Positions 1 through 22,935 of a stretch of 64,000 nucleotides of DNA are shown one piece after another. The notes beneath the pieces were generated by a model. That model was not told the origin of the DNA, did not search any database, and worked only from the letters and a program-made list of their open reading frames with translations. Made by a program: the position numbers and the translations under genes. Each line of letters begins with the position of its first letter. Position 1 is the stretch's first letter. The stretch lies in the NCBI GenBank assembly GCA_949295085.1, contig CASFJS010000001.1, positions 9,121-73,120 on the forward strand, written 5' to 3'. The stretch comes from an uncultured Pseudomonadota bacterium (lineage in GTDB: Bacteria > Pseudomonadota > Alphaproteobacteria > RF32 > CAG-239).

Positions 1-1938
1 ATGGTACTCCGTATCCGCCAGCCGGAATTGGCAAAAACCGCTTTGTCGGGTGCCGAGGATTTCGCCGCCGCCGCGCAATTCCAAGTCTTTTTCGGCAATC
101 AAAAAGCCGTCTTCGGTCTGTTTCATGATATTGAGACGCTCCCGCGCGGTTTCGCTCAGGGGCTGCCCGTAAAGCAGCAGACAGGTTGCCGCCTCAAACC
201 CGCGCTTGACCCGCCCGCGCAGCTGGTGCAGCTGTGCCAGCCCGAACCGCTCGGCGTGTTCAATCACCATAATGGTAGCTTCCGGCACATTCACGCCGAC
301 TTCAATCACCGTCGTTGCCACCAAAAGCTTTATCTCGCCGCGCTTAAACCGCTCCATCACCGCGTCTTTGTCTTTTTCTTTCATTTTGCCGTGCACCAGC
401 CCGACATCATCGCCGAATATTTTGCGCAGGTCTTCAAACCGCGCCTCGGCCGCCGCCAAATCGCTTTTTTCGGATTCTTCCACCAACGGACACACCCAAT
501 AAGCCCGCGTTCCGCTTTCAATTTTGCGTTTTAGGGCCGCCACCGTGTCCGCCAGCTTGGCTATCGGCAAAACACGGGTATCCACCGGCTTGCGCCCCTC
601 GGGAACCTGATCGATTTTGGAATATTCCATATCGCCGTAAGAGGTCAAAACCAGCGTCCGCGGAATAGGGGTTGCCGTCATAATCAGAACATCGGCCTTG
701 TCGCCTTTTTCCGACAATTTAAGCCGCTGGTGCACGCCAAACCGGTGTTGCTCGTCTACCACCACAAACCCCAGCTCTTTATAACTCACGTCTTCTTGAA
801 ACAAGGCGTGCGTGCCGATAAGAATGTTTATTTTGCCCTCAGCCAGTTTGTTGAGGATTTCCGTCCGTGCTTTGCCCTTGGTCTTGCCGGTCAGCAGCGC
901 CGCCGTAATGCCGATATCCTCACACATCGGCGCAATCGTTTCAAAATGTTGCTTGGCCAAAATCTCGGTCGGCGCCATAATCGCCGCCTGCAAACCGGCC
1001 TCAACCGCGTTCAGCATGGCCAAAAACGCCACAATCGTTTTGCCGGAGCCAACATCTCCCTGCAACAGCCGCAGCATGCGGAGCGACGCCGCCTGATCGG
1101 TATAAATCTCCGCCAAAACGTTTTTTTGCGCCGTTGTCAGCGTAAACGGCAGCTTTTCCATAATTTTTTTGCGCAACAGCCCGTTGCCGCGGACAATCCG
1201 GCCGCTTTGTTTTTTGACCCGCTCGCGGGCAATGGCCAATGTCAGTTGGTTGGCCAAAAGCTCGTCATAAGCCAGACGCGCCCGCTCTTTGGCATAAGGC
1301 TCAAGATCTTGCTGATAGCGCGGATGGTGCGCCTTGACCAGTGCCGAGCGGAAGTCGTCCCAGCCTTGTTGGTGCACAAAGGCTTCGTCCAGCCATTCGG
1401 GCAGGGCAGGCACTTTGGCCAGCGCCTGTTCGGCATATTTGTTGAGCATCTTGTTGCTGATGCCGGCCGTCAGCGGATAAACCGGTTCAAACGCCGGAAT
1501 TTTATCACTGTCGGCCTCAGGCACGATATAGTCCGGGTGCGCCATCTGCAGCATACCGTTAAAGCTTTCAATCTTACCGCTGACAATCCGCACCGCGCCG
1601 ACGGGCAGGTTTTTGGCAATCGAGTCGGCATAAACCTTAAAGAAAATCAGCGTCATCTCGCCGCTGCCGTCGCTGACCAAAACCCGATAAGGCTGCTGCC
1701 GTGTCTTTGGCGCAATATGTTCAATAACCTTAACCCGCAGCGTGCAAATACGCCCCAGTACGGCGTCTTTAAGCCGCGGCCGGTAGGATCGGTCAATAAT
1801 TCCGGCCGGCAGATGAAACGCCAGATCAACAATTTTGCTGCCGCTCAAAAGGTTTTGCAGCAGTTTGACGGTCTTGCTGCCGATACCTTTAAGCGTTGAA
1901 ATCTCGGCAAACAGGGGAAACAAAATCTCTGGACGCAT
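1..1938 (-). CDS. recG: ATP-dependent DNA helicase RecG (C-terminus runs off the left edge)
   Basis: Not in the ORF track. The reverse complement from ATG 1938-1936 reads MRPEILFPLFAEISTLKGIGSK... and stays in frame to position 1. It passes through GDVGSGKT (Walker A), VVDEQHRFGV and MTATPIPRT helicase motifs. Plus-strand ORFs 1..534 and 730..1899 are its antisense shadows. Confidence 0.9.
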   Translation of the reverse strand, partial: MRPEILFPLFAEISTLKGIGSKTVKLLQNLLSGSKIVDLAFHLPAGIIDRSYRPRLKDAVLGRICTLRVKVIEHIAPKTRQQPYRVLVSDGSGEMTLIFFKVYADSIAKNLPVGAVRIVSGKIESFNGMLQMAHPDYIVPEADSDKIPAFEPVYPLTAGISNKMLNKYAEQALAKVPALPEWLDEAFVHQQGWDDFRSALVKAHHPRYQQDLEPYAKERARLAYDELLANQLTLAIARERVKKQSGRIVRGNGLLRKKIMEKLPFTLTTAQKNVLAEIYTDQAASLRMLRLLQGDVGSGKTIVAFLAMLNAVEAGLQAAIMAPTEILAKQHFETIAPMCEDIGITAALLTGKTKGKARTEILNKLAEGKINILIGTHALFQEDVSYKELGFVVVDEQHRFGVHQRLKLSEKGDKADVLIMTATPIPRTLVLTSYGDMEYSKIDQVPEGRKPVDTRVLPIAKLADTVAALKRKIESGTRAYWVCPLVEESEKSDLAAAEARFEDLRKIFGDDVGLVHGKMKEKDKDAVMERFKRGEIKLLVATTVIEVGVNVPEATIMVIEHAERFGLAQLHQLRGRVKRGFEAATCLLLYGQPLSETARERLNIMKQTEDGFLIAEKDLELRGGGEILGTRQSGFCQFRLADTEYH

Positions 1939-2028
1939 AAAACCGTGGCCTTTCGTGAAATAAAACTTGCATAACCAAGGGCTATTGTATATATTTTTCG
2001 GCGTCAAGTAAACAATAAGAAACAAGTA

Positions 2029-5000
2029 ATGCAGGACAATATTGCGCGTTTTAAAGGGGCTACTTTTTCTTCCGTCGCCAAGGGCTATGATGCCCTGCTG
2101 GCGGGCAACTTTGCGCTCAATTCGCCGGAGGGCGTGGTTTACATTGCCGCCGACGGTGTCGAACTGGCCAATACGGTCGCGTTGATTGAGTATATGTTCC
2201 CCAAGCTGCAGGTGTTGCGTTTTCCGGCGTGGGATACCGTGCCGTATGACCGTGTTTCGCCCAATTCATCAATCATTGCACAGCGGATTGACTGCCTGTC
2301 AGCTTTGGCGCAGGCGCCATCGCCCGAGCATCCGCGCATTGTCGTGACTTCGGTCGGCGCGGTGCTGCAAAAACTGCCGCCAAAGAAGATTTTTCTTAAT
2401 TCTTTGCATGAAGTTTCTGTTGGTAGTAAATTGAATTTTGATGATTTTTTGCATTACGCGACAATCAACGGCTACAACCGCGTCGCTCAGGTCTACGAGC
2501 CCGGCGAATACGCCGTCCGCGGCGATATCATTGATATTTTTCCGGTCGGCACCGACGAGCCGCTGCGTATTGATTTGTTTGATGACGAGGTTGAGCGTAT
2601 CCGCACGTTTGACGCCATGAGCCAGCGCACCACCGGCGAGCTGAAGTCCTATCAGTTTAAGGTGATGAGCGAGGTTGTACTGGACGCCAACACTGTTAAG
2701 ACTTTCCGCTCCAAATACCGCGAGGCTTTCGGGGCTGATTTTAACGGCGACGAGATTTACGAGGCCGTTTCCGCCGGCCGCAAATACATCGGGCTGGAAA
2801 ACTGGCTGCCGTTTTTTTATGAAGACCCGCTGCCGACGTTGTTTGACTACCTGCCGTCTGCCGGTATTATTACTTCGGACAAGGTTGCCGATGCCGCTGC
2901 AGCCAAGGCCGACAGCATTGCCGATTATTATCATGCCCGCCTTGAGGCACTCAGGATAAAATCGGCCGCCGGCGAGGAAGCCTATCGTCCGGTTAAGCCG
3001 GAACTCCTCTATCTGACAGATAAAGAATTTGAAAATATACTAAAGCAAAAACAATCTGTTACACTAACTTTTTTAAGTATTCCGTCATCTGAAAATGTTG
3101 TTGATTGCCAGATTTTGCCGGTGCGCGATTTTGCCTCTGCCAAAAACATTACCGCCGGCGAGGTCTATGTCGAACTCAAAAATTATTTGAGCGAAAACAA
3201 AAAGTTAAAGCGCATTATTGCCTGCTATTCCGAGGGCAGCCGCGAGCGTCTGTTTTCGCTGATGAACGAATACGAGATTCCCGACCTCACGTTTGCCGAA
3301 AGCTGGAACGAAGCCTTGGATAAGGCCAAAGACAAGGTTGTGATGGTTGTTATGCCTTTGGAACACGGCTTTAAGGGCGACGGCCTGTGCCTGATTGCCG
3401 AGCAGGATATCTTGGGCGAAAAACAGCACCGCCGCAAGCAAAAGAAATATTCTTCCAAGGATTTTATTGCCGATGTCGGCTCCCTGCAAGTCGGCGAGCT
3501 GGTGGTGCATATCGACCACGGTATCGGCCGTTTTATGGGGCTGGAGAACATCACCGCCGGCGGCGCGCCGCATGATTGTCTGAAGATTGTTTATGCCAAC
3601 GATGCCAAGCTTTTTGTGCCGGTTGAAAACATTGATGTTTTGTCGCGCTACGGCCTTGATGACGAAAATATTGAGCTCGACACGCTGGGCGGCGCCGCCT
3701 GGTCGGCCAAAAAGGCCAAAGTCAAGGCCAAAATCCGCGATATTGCCGAAAAACTGATTAAAATTGCCGCCGAACGCCATCTTAAAAAGGCCGATTGCTA
3801 CGCCCCGCCGCAGGGAATGTTTGATGATTTTTGCGCCCGTTTTCCTTATAACGAAACCGATGACCAGCTCAACGCCATTGCCGACGTTATGGCGGATTTG
3901 AACGCCGCAATTCCGATGGACAGGCTGGTTTGCGGCGACGTCGGTTTCGGCAAGACCGAAGTTGCGTTGCGCGCTGCTTTTGCCGTGGCGGCGTCCGGTG
4001 CTCAGGTGGCGGTTGTGGTGCCGACCACGCTTTTGGCGCGCCAGCATTATCAAAACTTCAAAGCCCGTCTGGAGGGTTTTCCGATACGGGTTAAAATGCT
4101 TTCGCGTCTGGTAACACCCAAAGAGGCGCGCGAGACCAAGCAGGGACTTAAAGAAGGCTCGGTTGAAATCGTTATCGGCACCCACGCGCTGTTGTCAGAA
4201 AAGATTGAGTTTTGCAACCTCGGCCTGTTGATTATCGACGAGGAGCAGCATTTTGGCGTCGCTCATAAGGAAAAACTAAAGCAGATTAAGTCCGATGTCC
4301 ATGTCCTGACCCTAACCGCCACGCCGATACCGCGCACGTTGCAACTGTCGTTAACCGGCGTCAAGAGTTTAAGCGTCATTGCCACGCCGCCGGTTGACCG
4401 CCTGGCCGCGCGGTCATTTGTTATGCCGTTTGACAAAGTGATGATTAAAGAGGCCGTCTACCGCGAAAAATACCGCGGCGGCCAGAGTTTCTTTGTCTGT
4501 CCGCGGGTTTCCGATATCCGCGAGGTTGAAAAAGGGCTGCGCGCGCTGTTGCCGGATATCAAAATTCTGGTGGCTCACGGCCAGATGCCGCCCAAACAGC
4601 TTGAAGACGTTATGAACGACTTTGCCGACGGCAAGGCCGATATGTTGTTGTCCACCACGATTATCGAATCCGGCATTGATATGCCGCGGGTTAACACGAT
4701 GATTGTCTATCGTGCTGATATGTTCGGTCTGGCACAGCTCTATCAGCTCAAGGGCAGAATAGGGCGCGGCAAAGTCAGGGGCTATGCTTATTTCACCATT
4801 CCGCCGCACCGCAAACTTAATCCGGTGGCCGAGCGACGCCTGAGCATTTTGCAGGCGCTGGATACGCTGGGCGCCGGTTTTTCGCTGGCCAGTCATGATA
4901 TGGACATCCGCGGCGCCGGCAATGTTTTGGGCGAGGAGCAGTCCGGCCATATTAAAGACGTCGGCATTTCGCTTTATCAGCATATGCTGGAAGAAGAGAT

Positions 5001-5502
5001 TCTCCGCCTGCGTTCCGGCGTTATGGCCGATGAGCAGCGCAAGCAGATTGAAGACTGGGCGCCACAGATTTCAACCGGTATCCCGATTATGATACCCGAG
5101 GTCTACGTGCGCGATTTGGGCATTCGCTTGGGGCTTTATAAGCGTATCGGCGATATTAAGGACAAAGATGCTCTGGCCGATATGAAAGCGGAGCTGATAG
5201 ACCGTTTTGGCCCGTTACCGCCGGAGGTTGAAAACCTGCTCACCACGGTGGAAATCAAAATTGCCTGCCGCCTGGCCGGAATCGACCGGATTGACGCCGG
5301 CGCCAAAGGGGTTTTGATAGGATTTAGGGGCAATGTCTTTGCCCGTCCGGAAAAGCTGATAGAGCTGATAGCCTCGTCTTTCGGCACCATCAAAGTCCGT
5401 CCGGATCAGCGCCTGTTTATTGAAAAAGATTTGTCATCTTACGCCGTGCGCATTGCCACAATCAGACAATACATAGACCGAATCGCCGCTTTAGCAGTCT
5501 GA
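2029..5502 (+). CDS. mfd: transcription-repair coupling factor Mfd
   Basis: 1157 aa. Helicase motifs GDVGFGKTEVALRAAF, IIDEEQHFGV and LTATPIPRTL, with an Mfd-typical N-terminal UvrB-like region and C-terminal TRCF domain. Divergent from recG. Confidence 0.95.
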   Translation: MQDNIARFKGATFSSVAKGYDALLAGNFALNSPEGVVYIAADGVELANTVALIEYMFPKLQVLRFPAWDTVPYDRVSPNSSIIAQRIDCLSALAQAPSPEHPRIVVTSVGAVLQKLPPKKIFLNSLHEVSVGSKLNFDDFLHYATINGYNRVAQVYEPGEYAVRGDIIDIFPVGTDEPLRIDLFDDEVERIRTFDAMSQRTTGELKSYQFKVMSEVVLDANTVKTFRSKYREAFGADFNGDEIYEAVSAGRKYIGLENWLPFFYEDPLPTLFDYLPSAGIITSDKVADAAAAKADSIADYYHARLEALRIKSAAGEEAYRPVKPELLYLTDKEFENILKQKQSVTLTFLSIPSSENVVDCQILPVRDFASAKNITAGEVYVELKNYLSENKKLKRIIACYSEGSRERLFSLMNEYEIPDLTFAESWNEALDKAKDKVVMVVMPLEHGFKGDGLCLIAEQDILGEKQHRRKQKKYSSKDFIADVGSLQVGELVVHIDHGIGRFMGLENITAGGAPHDCLKIVYANDAKLFVPVENIDVLSRYGLDDENIELDTLGGAAWSAKKAKVKAKIRDIAEKLIKIAAERHLKKADCYAPPQGMFDDFCARFPYNETDDQLNAIADVMADLNAAIPMDRLVCGDVGFGKTEVALRAAFAVAASGAQVAVVVPTTLLARQHYQNFKARLEGFPIRVKMLSRLVTPKEARETKQGLKEGSVEIVIGTHALLSEKIEFCNLGLLIIDEEQHFGVAHKEKLKQIKSDVHVLTLTATPIPRTLQLSLTGVKSLSVIATPPVDRLAARSFVMPFDKVMIKEAVYREKYRGGQSFFVCPRVSDIREVEKGLRALLPDIKILVAHGQMPPKQLEDVMNDFADGKADMLLSTTIIESGIDMPRVNTMIVYRADMFGLAQLYQLKGRIGRGKVRGYAYFTIPPHRKLNPVAERRLSILQALDTLGAGFSLASHDMDIRGAGNVLGEEQSGHIKDVGISLYQHMLEEEILRLRSGVMADEQRKQIEDWAPQISTGIPIMIPEVYVRDLGIRLGLYKRIGDIKDKDALADMKAELIDRFGPLPPEVENLLTTVEIKIACRLAGIDRIDAGAKGVLIGFRGNVFARPEKLIELIASSFGTIKVRPDQRLFIEKDLSSYAVRIATIRQYIDRIAALAV

Positions 5503-5579
5503 GCAAGGCTTTGCATAAAAAAATTTACTTTTGCCGTAAAATAAGATAAAATAAAATCGTTTTTTGGAGGCATAATCCG

Positions 5580-6239
5580 ATGTATCCGACGGACAAATTT
5601 TATAATATGCAGGTTAATCTGGTCAAAAACGGCCGGGTCTATCCTGAAAAAGCCGCCATTCGCAACATTTGGCAAAAAGACCGTAACTTTTTTCTTGATA
5701 TCTATATTTATCGTTTGCAAAAGGCTTTTGTCTTTGATGCCGCCTTTGTTCGTGACATATCGGATATGAGCCGCGGCATAAGCTATAAGGACATCAACAA
5801 ATTTGCTGCCGATTTTGCCGCTGCGGCAGCTGTCGAGCCGGTGCAGGTGTCAAAAACGGGAACCGCAGATATTTTATCGCCGGTTAAAGATGATGTTATA
5901 CTGCTCCTGTTTATGTCCAAAGTTTGGAACGATAAAAACCCGATTAAGCAAAAGATTATTTTTGACTATATTCAAAGCAGCGTCGCCGCGGCCAAAAATC
6001 TGAGCGAGCGCTATTTGAGCCGGTATCTGGCCGGACTGCAACCGGCGGATGATGATTTTTACAACACCTTGAACCGTCTTAAGTCAAAAAAGCCGTCCCA
6101 AGCTCTGCGCCTGTTGCAGGAGGCGGTCAAAATTTGTCTTGTCGGCGGCTATCTGCATTACAACGAACGTATGTATCTGGCTGATTTTATCCAGGCCTTG
6201 CGCCAAGAGGGCGTGGAGGTTCCGCCCGATGTTATCTGA
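5580..6239 (+). CDS. hypothetical protein (219 aa)
   Basis: ATG preceded by GGAGG about 9 nt upstream. I recognise no catalytic motif, TM segment or signal peptide. Confidence 0.55.
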   Translation: MYPTDKFYNMQVNLVKNGRVYPEKAAIRNIWQKDRNFFLDIYIYRLQKAFVFDAAFVRDISDMSRGISYKDINKFAADFAAAAAVEPVQVSKTGTADILSPVKDDVILLLFMSKVWNDKNPIKQKIIFDYIQSSVAAAKNLSERYLSRYLAGLQPADDDFYNTLNRLKSKKPSQALRLLQEAVKICLVGGYLHYNERMYLADFIQALRQEGVEVPPDVI

Positions 6240-6299
6240 TTAAAAAAAAAGACGCTTCCTTTACCGGAGGTAAAAAAAAGCATCTTTTCAAAGTGTTCT

Positions 6300-6773
6300 T
6301 CAACCGTTAGACAGCATATCCTGCGTTATCAAGAGCCGATCCAGCTTTTTCATAAGCGCGGTATGGACACGTTCGGCGTCTCTCGGGTGCTTAAAAAGGT
6401 GGAGGGCGATAACATCGCAAAGCAAAACATTTTCATGTTCAAGTTGCGACAGCTGCCGTCGGAGACTTCGGCGATCTCTGAAAGAAAGTTCGGCGCGCAG
6501 GTAGTCCTGACAGTGGCGGATTCCGTCCAGCACAAACTTTATTTTTTTGTGAACTTGGAGGATATTTTCGTTTGCCGCAGCCGAGGCATTATCCCACAAA
6601 TTTTGTACGGCGAAGATAACGTTGTTTTTGTCAACGTGCGAAAAAACGGTTTCAAACAACAGACAGTCGTTGTTTTCCAGGGCGTTGATTATGACGTCGA
6701 CAAGCGACTTACGGCGTTTAACATAATCTGTTAAGGCCGTAATTTTAATTCTGATTTTTTCTATAGCGGTCAT
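6300..6773 (-). CDS. hypothetical helical protein (158 aa), cassette 3 of the tandem array
   Basis: The track ORF starts at TTG 6857. The first ATG (6773, MTAIEKIRIK...) lies 16 nt downstream of the conserved UTR 10-mer, matching the layout of the two neighbouring cassettes. No family recognised. Confidence 0.5.
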   Translation of the reverse strand: MTAIEKIRIKITALTDYVKRRKSLVDVIINALENNDCLLFETVFSHVDKNNVIFAVQNLWDNASAAANENILQVHKKIKFVLDGIRHCQDYLRAELSFRDRRSLRRQLSQLEHENVLLCDVIALHLFKHPRDAERVHTALMKKLDRLLITQDMLSNG

Positions 6774-6789
6774 AATAATTATTTTTAAT

Positions 6790-6854
6790 GTTAATAATTC
6801 TGTATATTGTAAATGTTGTAGTTTGAGAATATAGGCTTTTTTTTCGTCGGTCAA
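6790..6854 (-). promoter_or_regulatory. putative sigma70-type promoter plus conserved 5' UTR element (cassette 3)
   Basis: Minus strand: TTGACC (6854-6849), 18-nt spacer, TATTCT (6830-6825). The invariant AATTATTAAC (plus strand gttaataatt, 6790-6799) sits 16 nt before ATG 6773. Confidence 0.4.
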
Positions 6855-6901
6855 CAAAAAAATGACGTCGCCGTAAGCACTTACATCTCAGAAACAAGCG
6901 C

Positions 6902-6941
6902 AAAAAAGCCCGCGGAGAACCTTAAAAAGTTCCCGGCAGGC
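6902..6941 (-). terminator. rho-independent terminator after cassette 2
   Basis: Plus strand aaaaaa-gcccgcggagaac-cttaaaaa-gttcccggcaggc. On the minus strand this is an imperfect ~13-bp GC-rich hairpin followed by a T6 run. Confidence 0.6.
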
Positions 6942-6964
6942 TAAATTTCTGCTTCCTGACCACA

Positions 6965-7315
6965 CTACATAACATTGTAGTGTTGTGGTGTATTAAGGCT
7001 GAATTCCTCAAATGCCTTATAATGTCTTTCGGCATCGGAATAGGTCAGCAGTTGGAACAAAACCGTCAGTCCCTCCGATAACCCGAGTTCTTTCTTGTTC
7101 TCGAAGCTTATGCCGTTTAGCTTGTTGTTAAGCATCTGATTCCAGGCTATAAGACGGTTCTCGTGGCTTGAAATTTTCAAGGCCGTACGGATAAATTCCT
7201 TAAGATAGGGCACTTGCTCTGGTAATAAGGCATCACCTGTTAATTCGGGCGCTTCCGTCGGGCGGATGGCTTTGATCTGTTCGGCTTTAAAAAGCCTTTT
7301 TCTTGTCAGTTTCAT
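6965..7315 (-). CDS. hypothetical small protein (116 aa), cassette 2, paralog of 7485..7880
   Basis: ATG start. Shares the AIRP..PEL, PYLKEFI, AW..MLNNK, L.E..T.LF..L.Y and HY.A..E.S blocks with the neighbouring ORF. Confidence 0.65.
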   Translation of the reverse strand: MKLTRKRLFKAEQIKAIRPTEAPELTGDALLPEQVPYLKEFIRTALKISSHENRLIAWNQMLNNKLNGISFENKKELGLSEGLTVLFQLLTYSDAERHYKAFEEFSLNTPQHYNVM

Positions 7316-7332
7316 ACTTTTTATTTTTGGGG

Positions 7333-7396
7333 GTTAATAATTTCTATGTTATAGTGAAAACGACTCCAGAATATAATCTTTTGTCCATTTGGTCAA
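7333..7396 (-). promoter_or_regulatory. putative promoter plus conserved 5' UTR element (cassette 2)
   Basis: Minus strand: TTGACC (7396-7391), 17-nt spacer, TATTCT (7373-7368). AATTATTAAC (plus strand 7333-7342) sits 17 nt before ATG 7315. Confidence 0.4.
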
Positions 7397-7435
7397 CAAA
7401 AAATATTTGGTATTTTTTTTACCAAAAACGAGCAC

Positions 7436-7473
7436 AAAAAAGCCCGCGGGGAACTTTAATGTTCCCGGCGGAC
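7436..7473 (-). terminator. rho-independent terminator after cassette 1
   Basis: Plus strand aaaaaa-gcccgcggggaac-tttaat-gttcccggcgg. It is a near copy of the 6902-6941 hairpin and has a T6 run on the minus strand. Confidence 0.6.
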
Positions 7474-7484
7474 CGAAATTTCAT

Positions 7485-7880
7485 TTAATCAGCGTATTTC
7501 TCCGGCCTTGCGGAGTACTCGGTGTAGGCGCAATAGTGCAATTTTGCGCCGTAGTAGCCGAGCCTGTCGAACAGGAACGTCACGGCCTCACCGAGGTTCA
7601 GCCTTTCGCCCTCAACCCCTCCCCGGAGGTTTGACTTATTGTTAAGCATGGTCGCCCACGCTTTCATCATGTCCTCGTGGCTGTAGCCATGCGCCCGCGC
7701 CGCCAGGATAAATTTCCTCAGGTAAGGAGTTTGCTCGCGCCCGAGGTAAAAACTTCCCTTTGGCAACTCCGGAACCATAAGAGGGCGGATAGCGCGCAGT
7801 TCTGCGGCCGAAAAAAATCCCTTTTCCGAGATGTGGATAGAAGTGCTGCTGTTGATGCTGATGGTGTTTTCTTTTGCCAT
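7485..7880 (-). CDS. hypothetical small protein (131 aa), cassette 1, paralog of 6965..7315
   Basis: ATG with AAGGA upstream. By hand alignment it is about 35-40% identical to the 116-aa neighbour. Confidence 0.65.
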   Translation of the reverse strand: MAKENTISINSSTSIHISEKGFFSAAELRAIRPLMVPELPKGSFYLGREQTPYLRKFILAARAHGYSHEDMMKAWATMLNNKSNLRGGVEGERLNLGEAVTFLFDRLGYYGAKLHYCAYTEYSARPEKYAD

Positions 7881-7900
7881 AATCCTTGTTTTTTTAATTT

Positions 7901-7954
7901 GTTAATAATTTTTATCAATGGCAACAACATATCACATTTTGCCGGGGTGGTCAA
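7901..7954 (-). promoter_or_regulatory. putative promoter plus conserved 5' UTR element (cassette 1)
   Basis: Minus strand: TTGACC (7954-7949), 17-nt spacer, TATGTT (7931-7926). AATTATTAAC (plus strand 7901-7910) sits 20 nt before ATG 7880. Confidence 0.4.
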
Positions 7955-7986
7955 TCATAAAAATGACAAAATTTATTTTTTTTGTC

Positions 7987-8018
7987 AAAAAAAGAGGTCT
8001 CGTTTCGCGAAACCTCTT
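7987..8018 (-). terminator. rho-independent terminator ending the FAS/OmpA operon
   Basis: Minus strand: aagaggtttcgcgaaacgagacctct hairpin followed by TTTTTTT, 22 nt after the stop at 8040. Confidence 0.6.
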
Positions 8019-8039
8019 AAAATCAAAGCAAATCAAAGA

Positions 8040-8678
8040 TTATTGCTGATTAATCAGCACAATTTCCACCCGGCGGTTTTGTTCGCGTCCGGCCGCCGTC
8101 GCGTTAGAGGCAATCGGGTTGGCCGAGCCGTATCCGGTGGCAATAATCCGTCCGGCCGCCACGCCTTGCAGTTTTAAGAAATCGGCAACGGCATTGGCGC
8201 GGCGCTGCGATAACGGATTATTGATGGCGGCAGAGCCCGTATTATCGGTGTAGCCGTTAACCTGAACCAGCGTTTTGTCATATTCTTTCAAAACCTTGGC
8301 AATCGAAACCACAACCGGCTGGAAAGAAGACTTGATATAGGCCTCGTTGGTGTTAAAAGTGATGTTGCCGGGCATAATCAGATAAATCCGGCCGTCAAGT
8401 TCCTTAACCTGCACACCGGTTCCGACCAGCTCCTGCCGCAGCTTGGCAGCCTGATAATCCATATAGCCGCCGGCTGCCGCGCCGCCGGCCGCACCGATAC
8501 CGGCGCCGATAAGCGCGCCTTTTTCACCGCCGGCCAAAGCGCCGATACCCGCGCCCAAAGCCGCGCCGATACCCGTTCCCCAGGCCGTTTTGGCCACTTT
8601 CGTTTCGCCGGTATAAGGATCCGTGGCGCAGGCCGCCAACAGGGTTATCACCATTAAAGAGCCTAGTATTTTTTTCAT
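8040..8678 (-). CDS. OmpA-family lipoprotein with glycine-zipper region
   Basis: Lipobox LLAAC. GxxxG-rich segment (GIGAALGAGIGALAGG...). C-terminal OmpA-like domain with NTGSAAINNPLSQRRANAVADFL and NRRVEIVL. Confidence 0.85.
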   Translation of the reverse strand: MKKILGSLMVITLLAACATDPYTGETKVAKTAWGTGIGAALGAGIGALAGGEKGALIGAGIGAAGGAAAGGYMDYQAAKLRQELVGTGVQVKELDGRIYLIMPGNITFNTNEAYIKSSFQPVVVSIAKVLKEYDKTLVQVNGYTDNTGSAAINNPLSQRRANAVADFLKLQGVAAGRIIATGYGSANPIASNATAAGREQNRRVEIVLINQQ

Positions 8679-9853
8679 GCGTTTTTCTCCTCCGAAATTT
8701 TGCCGTGCAACAGTCTGGCCGAATCAAGCCCTGATGCAACGGCTTCCACAATGGTCGAACCGCCGGTTTTGCAGTCGCCGGCATAAATGATATGGGCGTG
8801 TTCAACCGGTTTTTCCGCGCGGCTGCCGATAGCTTTGATAATCAAGTCAAAACCTTCGCGCCGGATAACGGAATCTTCAATATCCTCATAACCGCGCTCC
8901 CCCGGTCGGGTGGAGCAGGTGTAGGCATCAAGTTTGTCGCCGCTTTTAACCACTTTGCAAACACGCGTTGTGGTGACCAGATCAATCTGCCGGTCAATCA
9001 GTTCTTCCATTTCCTTACGCGTCACCTTCATATCAAAAATCTTGCGCCGCACAAACACCGAAACACTGTCCGCCCCTTGATTCCTGGCCGTAACCGCACA
9101 ATCAGCCGCCACATTGCCGCCGCCGATAATGCCGACTCTTTTGGCGCCGGCAAAGTCCTGCGGCCGCTGCAGATATTCGGCATAGGGCACAACGTTTTCT
9201 TCTCCCTCAACGCCGAGATCAATGCCGTTTTGCTCGCCGATTGCCATAATCACACCGTCAAACCCTTGCGACAACAGCTCCGGCGGATTATCTACCCGTT
9301 TGTTAAATTCAATTTCGGCATTGCCGATTCGTTTAATATAGTTCCAGTCGTCTTCAATCACTTCATAAGGCAGGCGATAGTCGGGAATCAAGTTCAATGC
9401 GCCGCCGACTTTATCACTTTTTTCAAACAATTTAACGCCGTATCCCAGCTTGACCAAAACCCAGGCCGCTGCCATTCCGGCCGGTCCGGCGCCGACAATG
9501 GCGATTTTTTTGCCGTTGTCCGGTTCTTTGGCGGTGTCGGTCATATCTTCGCGATATTTATGAATCAAGGTAGCTTGCACCAGCGGAATATTAATCGGAA
9601 AATCAATTCGTCCGCGCACACAGGCTTTCATACAAAACGTATCCGGACAAATCAGCCCGCAGGTATGTCCCATCGGGTTGTTTTTGACGATTGAGGCCAC
9701 AGCCTCTTTGAATTCGCCCTTTTTAGCGTGTTGAATAAACTCCTGTGGCGAGCAGTTGACCGGACAAGCGCTCATACACGGTTTGGCCGCACAATTCAAA
9801 CAGCGGTTTAACTCGGCTTCAAACTGCGGTTTATTAAGATAAAGGTTGCCCAT
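8675..9853 (-). CDS. GltD-like NAD(P)H-dependent Fe-S flavoprotein (glutamate synthase small-subunit family)
   Basis: N-terminal Cys clusters (CLNCAAKPCMSACP, CGLICPDTFCMKAC). FAD/NAD Rossmann motifs IAIVGAGPAGMAAA and VGIIGGGNVAADCA. Its stop overlaps the next start (ATGA). Confidence 0.8.
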   Translation of the reverse strand: MGNLYLNKPQFEAELNRCLNCAAKPCMSACPVNCSPQEFIQHAKKGEFKEAVASIVKNNPMGHTCGLICPDTFCMKACVRGRIDFPINIPLVQATLIHKYREDMTDTAKEPDNGKKIAIVGAGPAGMAAAWVLVKLGYGVKLFEKSDKVGGALNLIPDYRLPYEVIEDDWNYIKRIGNAEIEFNKRVDNPPELLSQGFDGVIMAIGEQNGIDLGVEGEENVVPYAEYLQRPQDFAGAKRVGIIGGGNVAADCAVTARNQGADSVSVFVRRKIFDMKVTRKEMEELIDRQIDLVTTTRVCKVVKSGDKLDAYTCSTRPGERGYEDIEDSVIRREGFDLIIKAIGSRAEKPVEHAHIIYAGDCKTGGSTIVEAVASGLDSARLLHGKISEEKNA

Positions 9854-9871
9854 TTCTTAAAATCCTTAAGC

Positions 9872-10615
9872 TTAAACCATTACCATACCGCCGTTGACGT
9901 GAATAGTCTGTCCGGTGATATAGCCGGCCTCGTCGCTGGCCAAAAACAGTGCCGCATGAGCCACATCTTCCGGTGTGCCCATATACGCCATCGGTATATT
10001 TTCCAAAACTTTTTCTTTGGCTTTATCGGGCAAAACATCGGTCATCGGCGTTTTGATAAACCCCGGAGCCAGGCAGTTAATGGTAATCCCGCGCGAAGCA
10101 ACCTCCAGCGCCATGGATTTTGACATTCCGATAAGTCCGGCTTTGCTGGCGGCATAATTACTCTGTCCGGCATTACCGACCACGCCGACCACCGAGGTCA
10201 TATTGATAATCCGCCCGAAACGATGTTTGAGCATACAAGGCAAAACAGCCTTGGACAACAAAAAACTCGAGGTCAGGTTGGTATCCAGAACCTGATGCCA
10301 GGCCTCGCTTGAAATCTTGAGCGACAAATTGTCTTTGGTGATACCGGCGTTATTAATCAGAACATCGATTTTACCGCAGTCTTTCTCAACCTCGGCCACC
10401 AACCTGGCAATATTGTTTTCATCGCTCAAATCAAAGGCGTAAATCCGCACTTTGCCATCTGGCAGTTCGCTTTGGCGAAAGGCATCCAATTTTTCGGCGT
10501 TGCGGCCGACAATTGCCAGCTCGGCACCTTGTTGCTGAAAGAGTTTGCAAATACCGCGGCCGATACCGCCGGTCGCGCCGGTAATTAACACTGTTTTGCC
10601 ATGAAAATCAAGCAT
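9872..10615 (-). CDS. fabG: 3-oxoacyl-ACP reductase
   Basis: Trimmed to MLDFHGKTVLITGATGGIGRG, with GGAGA as the RBS. SDR catalytic motif YAASKAG. Confidence 0.9.
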   Translation of the reverse strand: MLDFHGKTVLITGATGGIGRGICKLFQQQGAELAIVGRNAEKLDAFRQSELPDGKVRIYAFDLSDENNIARLVAEVEKDCGKIDVLINNAGITKDNLSLKISSEAWHQVLDTNLTSSFLLSKAVLPCMLKHRFGRIINMTSVVGVVGNAGQSNYAASKAGLIGMSKSMALEVASRGITINCLAPGFIKTPMTDVLPDKAKEKVLENIPMAYMGTPEDVAHAALFLASDEAGYITGQTIHVNGGMVMV

Positions 10616-15232: not shown

Positions 15233-15703
15233 TTACTCAATAACAAATAAAGGCTCGTCAAACTCAACCGCCGAACCGGAGGCGACCAAAATCTCCCGAA
15301 TAATGCCGCCTTTGGGAGCCTTAATCTGGTTAAAGGTTTTCATTGCCTCAATCAGACACAACACATCGCCTTCGCGCACCGTGTCACCGACCTTGACATA
15401 CTCCGGATCATTCGGGCTGGCCGAGAGATACAAGACGCCGACCATCGGTGATTTGACCACATCACCTTTCGGCGCTGTCGCTGCTGTCGGAGCAGGAGCT
15501 TCCGCCGGAGCAGTCGGCATCGGCGCCGCCGGCAGAGGAGCAGGAACAGGGGCGGCAGCCGGGACAGCAGTAACAATTTCTTTTGCTCTGTTGGTCACGA
15601 TAATATGCAGGCCGTCTTTGTTATAGTCAACCGATTCCAAATTCAAATCGCTGACAATTTTGGCAATGCTCTCAATACAGGCAATATCTTCTTCTTGTGC
15701 CAT
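15233..15703 (-). CDS. accB: biotin carboxyl carrier protein
   Basis: Pro/Ala linker followed by a biotinyl domain carrying EAMKTFN (the canonical motif is EAMKMMN). Confidence 0.9.
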   Translation of the reverse strand: MAQEEDIACIESIAKIVSDLNLESVDYNKDGLHIIVTNRAKEIVTAVPAAAPVPAPLPAAPMPTAPAEAPAPTAATAPKGDVVKSPMVGVLYLSASPNDPEYVKVGDTVREGDVLCLIEAMKTFNQIKAPKGGIIREILVASGSAVEFDEPLFVIE

Positions 15704-20434: not shown

Positions 20435-20450
20435 TCAATCAGTTGATTGA
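20435..20450. promoter_or_regulatory. perfect 7-2-7 palindrome TCAATCA-GT-TGATTGA, candidate operator upstream of the FAS operon
   Basis: Read directly from the sequence, about 150 nt upstream of fabZ ATG 20288 in the divergent intergenic region. The flanks extend the symmetry (aaaG...Attt). Confidence 0.3.
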
Positions 20451-20575: not shown

Positions 20576-20603
20576 TTGCAATAAATTAATTTTATGCTAT
20601 TAT
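20576..20603 (+). promoter_or_regulatory. putative promoter of the lysozyme-domain gene
   Basis: TTGCAA (20576-20581), 16-nt spacer, TATTAT (20598-20603), about 18 nt upstream of ATG 20622. GAGGG serves as the RBS. Confidence 0.3.
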
Positions 20604-20621: not shown

Positions 20622-22274
20622 ATGACGTTGATGAAATATCAAAAATTTGATTGTGAGCAATATCTTTTAGATGAATATAAAAAAGACGGCAAAGAGCCGG
20701 TGTATTATCCGTGGATTGACGGCACAAGCCTCTTGGTTCCGAGTGCTTACAACGGCGATATGGAGACCTTTGAAGAAGATTTATTTGCTCATCCGGACAA
20801 GCAAAAAAAATATGACAGGTACAATGCCGCGCACCCCGACAACCCGATGGAAATACCGGAGCCGATTAAGTACCAAGATTTTTACATACTTCCCAAATTA
20901 AGCTATGTTCAAAAAGGCTTATCGGACAAAGAAATTATCCGTAAAACGCTGCAGGAAGTCCGGCGTCGTTATCGCGGCACGATCAAACAGACGGCGCGCA
21001 CCGCAAGAGAATATCCGCAGCAGTCATTCAGAGTCAAACTGACCAAAGAACACAAAGAAAAAATAAAAGCATTACATCATCGCCATCAACTCAAAAAATT
21101 AGGGCGGGGTATTGGCGAAATGTTTAAATTTACTGCCAAACAAACAGCAGAAATCTTAACCGGAGCGACCGGGGCTTTACCGGCCGTCACTTATTATCTT
21201 TTGGATAAAAAAGTTCATTTTGCCGAGAATAAGGCAAAAAGTTTTATCAACGAAAAAGCTTTGCCCTATATTCGTCGCGGCGCATTAAAAGCACTAATCC
21301 CGCTGAGTATATTTACGGCAATACGGGTAACGCCGGTTATAAAGCAAAACAAACAAGAAAAAATCGAAAGACAAGAGATTTTAGCTCGTGAACAGGCGGA
21401 AAAAGAGGCGTTCTTTGCCAAATACGACACGCGCAGCGAAGTTTTTTACCAAAATTATAAGCAGGCCAAAACCTTAGAATCAGAATTTCTGTGCCTGTTG
21501 TCGTGCTATGAAGATTATCACGAAAAAGCTTATAAATGCCAAGCCGGTGAATGGACAATCGGTTATGGTTCAAGACGTCTGGCCGACGGCCGCAAGGTGA
21601 CCAAAGGCATGACCATTACCCAAACCGAAGCGACACAAGCCGTTGCCAGACACATGGAAAAATATGTCTACCCACAATTTCGTCACATTACCAGAAAATT
21701 AACATCGGAACAACTCCTGGCTGTCAGTATGTTTATCTATAACACTGACGAAAGCGCATTTCAAAAATCAAAAGTCTGTTCGGCCGTTAATGCAAATGAA
21801 TCGGATGAGAAAGTCTGTGAAGCCTTTTCTTATTATCGCAGCGTCAACGGTAAGCGTAGTTATGGCCTGATTAACCGCCGCGGTTTTGAAGGACGTGTTT
21901 GGACATGCGGCGATATTTCATCTGTTTTAATACTGAGCCCGAATGTTGCCGGCAGCAAACATATCAAGTATTTTGAATATCCCAATGCCCGCAGCCGTGA
22001 TCCGATAGAAAACGACGATGGCACTTTTAGAGTGCGAAAAATCAAAGATGTTTCAAAAGATATGGAAAGATATAAAGTATCGTCAATTAATAAAAGTCTT
22101 CTCGGCAACATTCCCGAAGAATGCCGTAATGAATTGATAAAGAAATATGGCATCACCGAGCAAAACGGAACGTTGATTTGCCTAAACAACGACGCAAATG
22201 TCAACAAGCAAGGCAAAACAATTTCTTGGGAACAGGCGCAGGTACTGGCTCAAGCCCAAACACAAACTAAGTAG
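20622..22274 (+). CDS. membrane-associated protein with a central GH24 (T4/lambda-type) lysozyme domain (550 aa)
   Basis: Residues ~285-428 read YEDYHEKAYKCQAGEWTIGYGS...GMTITQTEA...LTSEQLLAVSMFIYNT...GLINRRGFEGRVW, matching the E-x8-D-x5-T lysozyme core. Hydrophobic segments lie at ~aa 180-195 and 222-238. The N- and C-terminal regions are of unknown family. Confidence 0.7.
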   Translation: MTLMKYQKFDCEQYLLDEYKKDGKEPVYYPWIDGTSLLVPSAYNGDMETFEEDLFAHPDKQKKYDRYNAAHPDNPMEIPEPIKYQDFYILPKLSYVQKGLSDKEIIRKTLQEVRRRYRGTIKQTARTAREYPQQSFRVKLTKEHKEKIKALHHRHQLKKLGRGIGEMFKFTAKQTAEILTGATGALPAVTYYLLDKKVHFAENKAKSFINEKALPYIRRGALKALIPLSIFTAIRVTPVIKQNKQEKIERQEILAREQAEKEAFFAKYDTRSEVFYQNYKQAKTLESEFLCLLSCYEDYHEKAYKCQAGEWTIGYGSRRLADGRKVTKGMTITQTEATQAVARHMEKYVYPQFRHITRKLTSEQLLAVSMFIYNTDESAFQKSKVCSAVNANESDEKVCEAFSYYRSVNGKRSYGLINRRGFEGRVWTCGDISSVLILSPNVAGSKHIKYFEYPNARSRDPIENDDGTFRVRKIKDVSKDMERYKVSSINKSLLGNIPEECRNELIKKYGITEQNGTLICLNNDANVNKQGKTISWEQAQVLAQAQTQTK

Positions 22275-22935
22275 TGTTTTTTTTCTTTCGCCGCAGGTGA
22301 TTGTACAAATACGCTGCCAACAAGACGACATACAAACCGCCCATTCCCCACCATGTCCAGTATTTTATCTGTTTGTCGCTCCATTCTTTGGTAATGGCAT
22401 TGACATTGAGCGCGCTGCCTTTGATTTTGAAGGTGGCTTTAGGGTTTTCATGCAAAATGGAAGCGCCGATTTGATAATCAGAGTTTAAAAAATCAAATTC
22501 GATAACCAAATCACCGTCAATTTCGCGCAGGCTGGAGGTTATATCCGGCGTGGTAATGGTTTTATCCAGCGTATAATGCACCATTTTGGCATCATCGGGG
22601 ATCACGATTCGTATGGGATTATGTCCGATTTTTGATACGTCTTTGCCGGATAGGGCGGAGGCGCCTTTGTTTTGCAGTGTCAGTCGAGTCAAATAAAGGT
22701 CTTTGTATTCCTGTCCTTTGACGCTGACTTTGTAGTCATTTTGGTTTTGCGAGGATATAAACGAAATTGTTTCGGCCTCGTATTTCAAAATCGGCCGGTT
22801 GATGTAAAACTGATACCAGCCGATGACAATGGCCGACACCGCCAGTAAAAAGGCGCCGGTTTTGCTGGTCCAAAAATCCCATACGGCCGTAATGATTTTT
22901 TTGATATCCGTATTGTTACGCTTAAATAATTTCAT
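22267..22935 (-). CDS. hypothetical membrane protein with N- and C-terminal TM helices flanking a beta-rich domain (222 aa)
   Basis: ATG start. TM segments GAFLLAVSAIVIGWY and WWGMGGLYVVLLAAYLY, followed by a basic tail RRKKKNTT. Its 3' end overlaps the convergent gene by 8 nt. Confidence 0.6.
   Translation of the reverse strand: MKLFKRNNTDIKKIITAVWDFWTSKTGAFLLAVSAIVIGWYQFYINRPILKYEAETISFISSQNQNDYKVSVKGQEYKDLYLTRLTLQNKGASALSGKDVSKIGHNPIRIVIPDDAKMVHYTLDKTITTPDITSSLREIDGDLVIEFDFLNSDYQIGASILHENPKATFKIKGSALNVNAITKEWSDKQIKYWTWWGMGGLYVVLLAAYLYNHLRRKKKNTT

What the first reader, a model, noticed from the sequence alone, without database searches (positions are those of the whole stretch)
20622..22274. 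550-aa membrane-associated protein with a GH24 lysozyme core carrying Cys at the T4 Asp20 position
Residues ~285-428 align by eye with T4/P22/lambda-type lysozymes. E297, C306 and T312 reproduce the E11-D20-T26 spacing exactly (9 and 6 residues), but Cys (TGC at 21537-21539) replaces the catalytic Asp. The domain sits between a ~285-aa N-terminal region with two hydrophobic segments and a ~120-aa C-terminal region, both of unknown family. No other phage genes surround it. It could be a domesticated cell-wall remodelling enzyme, an effector, or a remnant of a lysis module.
Basis: partly seen in the sequence, partly recalled or inferred. Interest (0 to 1): 0.6.

Follow-up and report, generated by a model that had tools for sequence, protein, structure and literature searches.

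The report
Membrane-tethered chromosomal phage-type lysozyme
An uncultured gut alphaproteobacterium carries, as an ordinary chromosomal gene, a phage-type cell-wall-cutting enzyme fused to an unknown lineage-specific front domain and a weak membrane anchor; the cysteine in its active site is a known working variant, not a defect.

Summary
ORF 20622-22274 (+) encodes 550 aa with a genuine GH24/T4-type lysozyme domain (Pfam PF00959, E=5.5e-24). E297, C306 (TGC 21537-21539) and T312 align with the E11/D20/T26 triad.

The Cys is not an anomaly. [quoted passage not shown]

More interesting is the architecture. A 165-aa N-domain folds with confidence (pLDDT 92) but has no structural or sequence relative. 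Only 87 protein clusters among 1.84 billion hold it, and it is always N-terminal. It occurs once per genome in about half of one family of small-genome gut Alphaproteobacteria.

It is always followed by a Gly/Ala/Ser/Thr-rich membrane segment and a muramidase cassette. The cassette differs between lineages:
- GH24 with Asp
- GH24 with Cys plus a C-terminal domain (this gene)
- GH108
- a divergent lysozyme-like domain plus TPR

Cassettes are exchanged just after the anchor between near-identical N-modules, at one housekeeping locus (fabZ / dsbD-rnf). There is no phage, secretion or defence context.

Most likely this is a type II inner-membrane-anchored, active periplasmic muramidase with a cytoplasmic control domain. 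Its biological role is unknown. The closest analogue is SpmX.

The parts
20576..20603 (+). Promoter-like site (TTGCAA-16-TATTAT with TG), followed by GAGGG/AAGG ribosome-binding motifs before the ATG
   Evidence: Consensus scan and sequence read. A pattern match only, not proof of function.
20622..22274 (+). Whole ORF, 550 aa (P0001). An alternative start lies at ATG 20631.
20622..21125 (+). N-domain, residues 1-168: two beta-hairpin-plus-helix units followed by two long helices. It is lineage-specific and inferred to be cytoplasmic.
   Evidence: AF2 pLDDT 92.4, pTM 0.82. No PDB or BFVD fold match and no PDB sequence-profile match. Only 87 clusters among 1.84e9 proteins hold it, always at the N-terminus. 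No phage match.
21147..21203 (+). Hydrophobic segment 1, residues 176-194 (AEILTGATGALPAVTYYLL). Probably a juxtamembrane helix rather than a membrane span.
   Evidence: Weak hydrophobicity. The homologous stretch in other genera carries K/R and is not hydrophobic.
21285..21341 (+). Hydrophobic segment 2, residues 222-240 (LKALIPLSIFTAIRVTPVI). Inferred signal-anchor, N-in/C-out.
   Evidence: Its position matches the single clear Gly/Ala/Ser/Thr-rich TM of relatives. Flanks of those TMs: K/R 4.5 on the N side against 3.5 on the C side, D/E 0.9 against 2.9. The cassette breakpoint lies just after it.
21342..21476 (+). Charged helical linker or stalk, residues 241-285
   Evidence: AF2 predicts one continuous helix over 205-268. 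Conserved EQAEKEAFF..Y.T motif.
21477..21905 (+). GH24 (T4-type) muramidase domain, residues 286-428. Catalytic codons: E297 21510-21512, C306 21537-21539, T312 21555-21557.
21906..22190 (+). C-terminal domain, residues 429-523, of unknown family. It is shared with short signal-anchored GH24-Cys proteins of sister genera.
   Evidence: pLDDT 84-94. No PDB profile match. Homology to the short forms extends past the catalytic domain.
22191..22274 (+). Low-confidence basic/Gln-rich tail and stop codon. It overlaps the 3' end of the convergent gene by 8 nt.
22267..22935 (-). Convergent 222-aa two-TM protein (P0114). A frequent neighbour but not an obligate partner.
   Evidence: Found in 21 of 41 genus genomes. 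Present without the lysozyme gene in at least 8 and absent where that gene is present in at least 8. It is 82-87% identical beside cassettes of different type.

Best explanation
P0001 is a lineage-specific chromosomal peptidoglycan muramidase, not a phage part. The inferred topology is type II bitopic. The N-domain (1-168) and the basic helices up to about residue 220 stay in the cytoplasm. Segment 2 (about 222-240) anchors the protein in the inner membrane. A charged helical stalk (241-285) then holds the GH24 domain and its C-terminal domain in the periplasm, near the sacculus.

There the enzyme would hydrolyse MurNAc-beta-1,4-GlcNAc bonds as T4, P22 and P1 lysozymes do. E297 would act as the general acid, with C306 and T312 at the positions held by Asp20 and Thr26 in T4 lysozyme. 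The cytoplasmic N-domain would control where or when the enzyme acts.

The periplasmic part behaves as an exchangeable cassette. The same N-domain-plus-anchor module carries GH24-Asp, GH24-Cys+CTD, GH108 or lysozyme-like+TPR in different lineages, which suggests the module needs some muramidase rather than a particular one.

Shown here: the domain identities, the catalytic residues and their invariance, the distribution, the synteny, the cassette exchange and the absence of phage context. Inferred: the topology, the enzymatic activity, and the regulatory role of the N-domain.
For: 1. GH24 identity and an intact triad plus Y304 (the Y18 equivalent), invariant in 24 relatives.
2. The Cys variant is known to be active (PMC3556154; bioRxiv 10.1101/418723).
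3. Relatives in other genera have one clear TM at the segment-2 position, while their segment-1 equivalent is polar. For 35 clear TMs the N flank is net about +3.6 and the C flank about +0.6.
4. The nearest relatives of the catalytic+CTD part are 257-331-aa proteins with an N-terminal signal-anchor directly before the same GH24-Cys domain, so those are exported. They share 31-34% identity, against 21-30% for Asp-type N-domain proteins.
5. In genus g7 the short form sits directly after mraZ-rsmH-(FtsL-sized ORF)-class B PBP in two genomes, which links this GH24 lineage to wall synthesis or division.
6. The N-domain is always fused to a muramidase: 29 PF00959, 13 PF05838, about 10 TPR type, of 64 scanned.
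7. It is single copy in 77 of 151 genomes and 13 of 20 genera. The locus is fixed between fabZ and dsbD-rnf in the close species.
8. dN/dS is 0.14 against a close strain, so the gene is under purifying selection.
Against: - In this protein the anchor is marginal: only 11-12 consecutive apolar residues in segment 2, and a crude summed insertion energy of +4.7 to +6.9 kcal/mol.
- There are two hydrophobic segments. If both span the membrane, the catalytic domain is cytoplasmic.
- No dedicated topology predictor was available, and AF2 confidence over 163-240 is low.
- The putative periplasmic part holds 8 Cys, and no partner for C306 is conserved.
- The genome already has two SLT-domain proteins, MltG and an Amidase_3 protein, so no missing function points to a role.
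- About half of the family's genomes show no N-domain, and one carries a copy with eight stop codons, so the gene is dispensable.
- The dcw link concerns a 30%-identical relative in two genomes only.
Confidence: 0.55

Rival explanations
1. SpmX-like co-option. Both weak hydrophobic segments insert as a hairpin, so the N-domain and the GH24 domain both stay in the cytoplasm. The lysozyme fold then serves as a protein-interaction or localisation module rather than as a wall-cutting enzyme.
For: Two hydrophobic segments are present in this subclade. The loop between them is K/R-rich (7 K/R against 3 D/E). The part after the anchor has many Cys. SpmX is a precedent in Alphaproteobacteria and a structural neighbour (6h9d).
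Against: All catalytic-cleft residues that SpmX lost (D20, T26, Y18) are invariant here. Relatives have only one TM. The closest relatives of the catalytic cassette have an N-terminal signal-anchor. Replacement of GH24 by GH108 in other members argues for enzymatic rather than scaffold selection.
Confidence: 0.12
2. Regulated self-lysis or anti-phage abortive-infection device. The cytoplasmic N-domain senses a signal such as a phage protein or membrane damage. The weakly hydrophobic, SAR-like anchor lets the muramidase become active and lyse the cell.
For: The anchors are about 50% Gly/Ala/Ser/Thr, like SAR domains. The catalytic Cys resembles that of P1 Lyz. The gene diverges faster than its fab/acc neighbours and shows a recombination tract in the N-part: dS 0.13-0.17 against 0.003-0.04 in most neighbours, with accB (0.14) the exception. 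Cassette swapping occurs. Presence is patchy.
Against: No PADLOC match. It lies in no defence island; the locus is fixed and housekeeping. A folded domain of at least 165 aa on the cytoplasmic side makes SAR-type escape of the helix into the periplasm physically implausible. No Cys is conserved in the anchor, and no partner for a caging disulfide is conserved. The divergence is only modestly above that of the neighbouring membrane and periplasmic proteins rseC, apbE and dsbD.
Confidence: 0.1
3. Interbacterial weapon of the pesticin type or a polymorphic-toxin type. The N-module would act as a delivery part with swappable muramidase toxin ends, and the convergent 222-aa membrane protein would be the immunity protein.
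For: The C-terminal cassette is displaced after a conserved N-module. A membrane protein lies convergent and overlapping. That adjacency recurs at other loci in G017 and G033. The pesticin-T4L chimera is among the distant fold hits.
Against: The 222-aa protein is 82-87% identical next to different cassette types. It is missing beside GH24-Cys genes in L017 and L020, and it is present in at least 8 genomes without any N-domain gene. Relatives have a true TM anchor. There are no secretion-system, lysis or TonB-box features, and the gene is single copy.
Confidence: 0.05
4. Decaying remnant of a prophage lysis cassette.
For: The GH24 domain is of phage type, and the best sequence and structure neighbours are phage endolysins. 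GC content is lower (0.41) than in the flanking fab operon.
Against: No phage genes lie within at least 10 kb on either side. The locus is the same in several species. The frame is intact under purifying selection (dN/dS 0.14). The N-domain is absent from 50,697 phage records. The protein is three times the size of an endolysin and has conserved extra domains.
Confidence: 0.03

Closest known systems
Phage P1 Lyz (SAR endolysin, GH24)
   Same: Same fold (1xjt). It has the same E-8-C-5-T triad with a catalytic Cys and a weakly hydrophobic, Gly/Ala-rich membrane tether before the catalytic domain. The local motif C-x-A-G-x-W-T-x-G-x-G is shared, though that comparison rests on my recollection of the P1 sequence.
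   Different: In P1 Lyz the anchor lies at the extreme N-terminus and leaves the membrane. Here it is internal, behind a folded 165-aa domain. There is no conserved caging or activating Cys pair and no holin/spanin context. This is a chromosomal single-copy gene with an extra C-terminal domain.
SpmX of Caulobacterales
   Same: An alphaproteobacterial, vertically inherited, single-copy gene built from a phage GH24 domain joined to membrane segments and lineage-specific sequence. It is a structural neighbour (6h9d).
   Different: The domain order is reversed: in SpmX the GH24 is N-terminal and the two TMs are C-terminal. SpmX has lost D20, T26 and Y18 and is attenuated, whereas here E, C, T and Y are invariant. 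The two have different N/C partner domains and occur in a different bacterial order.
MltG (YceG) and similar bitopic inner-membrane glycan-strand cleaving enzymes
   Same: The inferred layout is the same: a cytoplasmic N-terminal part, a single membrane anchor, and a periplasmic peptidoglycan glycosidase. This is a 'works like' comparison based on established knowledge of MltG.
   Different: The catalytic fold is unrelated (YceG against GH24), and a hydrolytic muramidase is expected here rather than a lytic transglycosylase. The genome has its own MltG.
Pesticin (Yersinia bacteriocin with a T4-lysozyme-like killing domain)
   Same: A non-phage protein with an N-terminal non-enzymatic module and a C-terminal GH24-like muramidase. 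In both cases a membrane or periplasmic protein is encoded next door.
   Different: Pesticin is soluble and released, imported through a TonB-dependent receptor, and paired with a specific immunity protein. Here there is a membrane anchor and the neighbour is not coupled.

Membership tests
GH24 / Pfam PF00959 phage (T4-type) lysozyme | Profile match above the curated threshold | tested here: met
   85.3 bits against a cut-off of 22.3, residues 296-421. PHROG endolysin families also match.
GH24 / Pfam PF00959 phage (T4-type) lysozyme | Glu-8X-Asp/Cys-5X-Thr catalytic motif | tested here: met
   E297, C306 and T312 with spacings of 8 and 5, aligned to the Glu and Asp of solved muramidases. Invariant in 24 relatives. 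Motif definition from PMC3556154.
GH24 / Pfam PF00959 phage (T4-type) lysozyme | T4-lysozyme-like two-lobe fold | tested here: met
   Foldseek: 6et6 E=3.3e-8, TM 0.84, rmsd 1.7 A. P22, R21, P1 Lyz and SpmX are also hit.
GH24 / Pfam PF00959 phage (T4-type) lysozyme | Muramidase activity on peptidoglycan | not testable with these tools
   Needs a zymogram or an RBB-sacculi assay.
SAR endolysins (P1 Lyz / R21 type) | Weakly hydrophobic signal-anchor-release helix at the extreme N-terminus, directly before the catalytic domain | tested here: not met
   The hydrophobic segments lie at 176-194 and 222-240, after a folded 168-aa domain and about 55 residues before E297.
SAR endolysins (P1 Lyz / R21 type) | For the P1 subclass: the catalytic Cys is caged by a conserved second Cys and freed by a Cys in the SAR helix | tested here: not met
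   C291 and C295 are frequent but absent in P0008/9/10/12. There is no Cys in either hydrophobic segment of P0001.
SAR endolysins (P1 Lyz / R21 type) | Phage lysis-cassette context (holin/pinholin, spanins) | tested here: not met
   The neighbours are fabZ-accA-accD and dsbD-CDP-OH transferase-apbE-rnf.
SpmX | N-terminal GH24 domain, Pro-rich middle, two C-terminal TM segments | tested here: not met
   The order here is N-domain, hydrophobic segments, GH24, CTD. SpmX architecture taken.
SpmX | Remodelled cleft (D20L/R/G, loss of T26 and Y18) | tested here: not met
   C306, T312 and Y304 are invariant.
Pesticin-like or polymorphic muramidase toxins with immunity | An adjacent immunity gene that co-occurs and co-varies with the toxin domain | tested here: not met
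   P0114 is present without the gene and absent with it in at least 8 genomes each, and it is 82-87% identical beside different cassettes.
Known anti-phage defence systems (PADLOC) | Match to a defence-system protein model | tested here: not met
   No hit for P0001, P0114 or P0026 at E<=0.1.

The most novel reading that the evidence does not exclude
The N-domain plus small-residue-rich anchor is an undescribed cytoplasm-to-periplasm control module. It gates a catalytically competent muramidase from inside the cell. That could serve septal or polar wall cleavage coupled to the divisome, or deliberate self-lysis on an intracellular signal. Because the module only needs some muramidase, it has repeatedly captured different phage-derived cassettes (GH24-Asp, GH24-Cys, GH108, lysozyme-like+TPR). 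This would be a new principle for regulating an autolysin, and a case of serial domestication of phage lysins at one locus.
Probability: 0.15. Interest if true: 0.7.

Novelty: new variant of a known kind. Interest (0 to 1): 0.38.

Why it matters
The feature the finding was built on, Cys at the Asp20 position, is ordinary: a documented and active variant.

What has some value is the protein family around it. A phage-type lysin has become a fixed chromosomal gene in an uncultured family of gut Alphaproteobacteria. Unlike SpmX, it keeps every catalytic residue. It is tied to an orphan, confidently folded N-domain. Its enzymatic half has been replaced several times by unrelated muramidase families.

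If the N-domain controls the enzyme from the cytoplasm, this would be a compact model for how bacteria tame lytic enzymes. It would also add a second, independent example of lysin co-option in Alphaproteobacteria. The organisms are uncultured and no function is shown, so for now the finding is descriptive.

Tried and rejected
- Family searches of the flanking domains (Pfam, NCBIfam, PHROGs, PADLOC) found nothing.
- The fold search of the N-domain against PDB and BFVD gave a best E of 1.3 and 0.2, so no match.
- Profile searches of the N-domain and the CTD against PDB sequences found nothing significant.
- tblastn of the N-module against 50,697 phage records gave no match.
- Prophage hypothesis: rejected on context and synteny.
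- Immunity or partner role for the 222-aa neighbour: rejected on co-occurrence.
- Functional link to the neighbouring DsbD-like gene (protection of a periplasmic catalytic Cys): attractive, but dsbD also flanks the Asp-bearing TPR-type alleles (L021-L024), so there is no correlation.
- 'Sole glycan-cleaving enzyme of a reduced genome': rejected, because two SLT-domain proteins, MltG and an Amidase_3 protein are present.
- The locus in same-genus genomes without a hit: their fabZ lies in a different context and is only about 50% identical, so the comparison was uninformative.
- 'Extraordinarily fast evolution' had to be toned down. The gene diverges more than the fab/acc genes but only modestly more than rseC, apbE and dsbD next door.
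- The search for related loci with the N-domain alignment failed because no stretch was conserved enough. With the single protein it returned only two MAG records, titled 'Alphaproteobacteria bacterium'.
Full report
**1. The observation**

The ORF 20622-22274 (+) is open and encodes 550 aa. It has its own promoter-like site and Shine-Dalgarno motifs. A 98%-identical relative was called from the ATG nine bases further on.

Pfam PF00959 (Phage_lysozyme) matches residues 296-421 at 85.3 bits, against a threshold of 22.3. PHROG endolysin families match the same stretch. The only NCBIfam hit is a sub-threshold match to the Bartonella GTA endolysin, and it covers the catalytic domain only.

HMMER alignments to solved muramidases put E297 on the catalytic Glu and C306 on the Asp. 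I read the codons directly: GAA 21510-21512, TGC 21537-21539, ACA 21555-21557. The AF2 model superposes on GH24 structures (6et6 TM 0.84, rmsd 1.7 A). P22 lysozyme, R21, P1 Lyz and the SpmX muramidase domain are also among the hits. In 24 full-length relatives of 35-98% identity, E297, Y304, C306 and T312 are invariant.

**2. The Cys is a known, working variant**

[quoted passage not shown] P1 Lyz is the Cys-bearing example, and there the Cys is used for disulfide regulation (PMC3556154). The SpmX study states that D20C/A are the only position-20 substitutions that keep hydrolytic activity in T4 and P22 lysozymes, and that they are well represented in phage sequences (bioRxiv 10.1101/418723).

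Here all cleft residues that SpmX lost (D20, T26, Y18) are kept, so the domain looks catalytically competent. No conserved second Cys could cage C306. C291 and C295 are frequent but missing in several relatives, and the hydrophobic segments hold no Cys.

**3. Context**

The genome is a 1.47-Mb, 100%-complete MAG of an uncultured gut alphaproteobacterium, and the gene is single copy.

- Upstream and divergent lies the fabZ-accA-accD-NMO-fabI operon.
- Downstream and convergent lie a 222-aa two-TM protein, a DsbD-like protein and a CDP-alcohol phosphatidyltransferase.
- After those come apbE-rseC-rnf.

There are no phage, secretion-system or defence genes, and PADLOC finds nothing. The same position between fabZ and dsbD is occupied by a homologue in the closely related species.

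**4. The family**

The N-terminal 168 residues fold with high confidence (pLDDT 92.4, pTM 0.82). They have no structural neighbour in PDB or BFVD, no profile match to PDB sequences and no match in phage genomes.

A profile of this domain finds only 87 clusters among 1.84 billion representative proteins. It is always at the N-terminus of proteins of about 410-750 aa. In the organism's order, which is sampled as a single family, it occurs once per genome in 77 of 151 genomes and 13 of 20 genera. One genome carries a copy with eight stop codons.

Of 64 full-length members, 29 carry PF00959, 13 carry GH108 (PF05838) and about 10 carry TPR repeats. The TPR forms have a divergent lysozyme-like stretch (E-8-D, then ...T.G.G) that Pfam does not call. 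The N-domain is therefore always joined to a muramidase, but not to one particular family of them.

The E-8-C-5-T form is confined to this protein's own subclade. Other genera have E-8-D-5-T.

**5. Cassette exchange**

L021 (TPR type) is 88-100% identical to P0017 (GH24-Cys type) over residues 1-240 and about 20% identical afterwards. P0032 against P0003 behaves the same way. P0026 is a mosaic of a P0003-like segment (1-120) and a P0001-like segment (121-235) in front of a TPR cassette. The breakpoint falls just after hydrophobic segment 2.

Against a 98%-identical strain, synonymous divergence is 0.13-0.17 over residues 1-245. It is 0.003-0.04 in most neighbouring genes (accB, at 0.14, is the exception), and overall dN/dS is 0.14. 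This points to a recombination tract in a gene under purifying selection.

The catalytic+CTD half of P0001 is closer to short (257-331 aa) chromosomal proteins of sister genera than to the catalytic domains of Asp-type N-domain proteins: 31-34% identity against 21-30%. The g6 short forms consist of an N-terminal signal-anchor, a GH24 domain with E-8-C-4-T, and a similar tail. This protein therefore looks like the N-module fused to that Cys-type cassette.

In genus g6 the short form sits beside groESL. In genus g7 it directly follows mraZ-rsmH-(FtsL-sized ORF)-class B PBP in two genomes. That is a hint of a role in wall synthesis or division. It concerns a distant relative whose motif is itself altered: Ser at the Asp position and Cys at the Thr position.

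**6. Topology**

In P0001 both hydrophobic segments are weak. Relatives in other genera have one clear TM at the segment-2 position. It is about 50% Gly/Ala/Ser/Thr, and the segment-1 equivalent contains Lys/Arg. Around 35 clear TMs, the N flank carries more K/R and far fewer D/E than the C flank, as expected for an N-in/C-out orientation. AF2 continues segment 2 into a long charged helix that leads to the catalytic domain.

Together with the signal-anchored short forms, this favours a cytoplasmic N-domain and a periplasmic muramidase. It is an inference, because no dedicated predictor or experiment was available. SAR-type release is unlikely, since a folded domain of at least 165 aa sits on the cytoplasmic side of the helix.

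**7. The neighbour**

The 222-aa protein overlaps the gene's 3' end by 8 nt. It is also adjacent to the gene at two other loci, in G017 and G033. Even so, it occurs in at least 8 genomes without an N-domain gene and is absent from at least 8 that have one. It stays 82-87% identical beside different cassette types. It is not an immunity protein or an obligate partner.

**8. Role**

The genome has two SLT-domain proteins, MltG and an Amidase_3 protein, so this enzyme does not fill an obvious gap. The best reading is a lineage-specific, dispensable, inner-membrane-tethered periplasmic muramidase controlled or positioned through its cytoplasmic N-domain (confidence about 0.55). The rivals are:

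- a SpmX-like cytoplasmic scaffold (0.12);
- a regulated self-lysis or defence device (0.10);
- an interbacterial toxin (0.05);
- a prophage remnant (0.03).

**9. Earlier notes of this scan**

A follow-up on an orthologue in another genome (e1-1211274) reached the same reading: domesticated, membrane-tethered, two interchangeable versions, neighbour not a partner, SpmX as the closest known. My analysis was done independently and agrees with it. It adds five things:

- the GH108 members;
- the short signal-anchored Cys-type relatives and their dcw and groESL contexts;
- the Asp-to-Cys distribution across genera;
- the recombination tract;
- the family-wide count of the N-domain.

**Verdict.** The surrounding architecture is an undescribed variant of lysin domestication, of moderate interest and unknown function.

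Noticed in passing
L048 (G016:C24) 3168-7630 and L051 (G031:C2) 3671-7721: In genus g7, a 242-286-aa signal-anchored GH24 homologue lies directly after mraZ-rsmH-(128-aa FtsL-sized ORF)-class B PBP, where murE usually follows. Its motif reads E-8-S...C-V-G-Y-G, with Ser at the Asp position and Cys at the Thr position.
   Followed up: partly
L019 (G017:C2) 6025-10099: One same-genus genome has two tandem paralogues (525 and 600 aa, both N-domain + GH24-Cys) next to a homologue of the 222-aa membrane protein. The locus is unrelated to fabZ/dsbD.
   Followed up: partly
G080:C2:37685-38344 (not fetched as a locus): A copy of the N-domain gene interrupted by eight stop codons (1 TGA, 1 TAG, 6 TAA), so the gene is being lost in at least one lineage.
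   Followed up: no
window 15233-15703 (accB) against L040 603-1073: Between two otherwise near-identical strains (dS 0.00-0.04 in most genes), accB has dS 0.14 and 5% amino-acid difference. This is a second local recombination tract, besides the one in the lysozyme gene.
   Followed up: no
P0019, P0024 and P0028 (relatives), first ~40-45 residues: Some relatives carry an extra N-terminal copy of the first beta-hairpin-plus-helix unit (..Y....G....L.P.SY....F..D). The N-domain itself contains two such units, so it may have arisen by internal duplication.
   Followed up: no
Phage records MT838727.1 (4.9 kb, human faeces) and MG945887.1 (Microviridae, 5.8 kb, pig faeces): Two very small faecal viral contigs encode GH24-like stretches. 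MT838727.1 is the strongest phage match to this catalytic domain (34% identity, E=7e-19); MG945887.1 is weaker (28% identity, E=2e-7).
   Followed up: no
L027/L028 (genus g9) 1899-9066, and L029/L030 (genus g13): In two other genera the N-domain gene lies directly after, or two genes from, a tetR-MFP-AcrB efflux operon. This may be coincidence.
   Followed up: no
window 20435-20450: A perfect 16-nt palindrome (AGTCAATCAGTTGATTGA region) lies at the fabZ start, in the divergent intergenic region shared with this gene. Another first-stage note had already flagged it.
   Followed up: no
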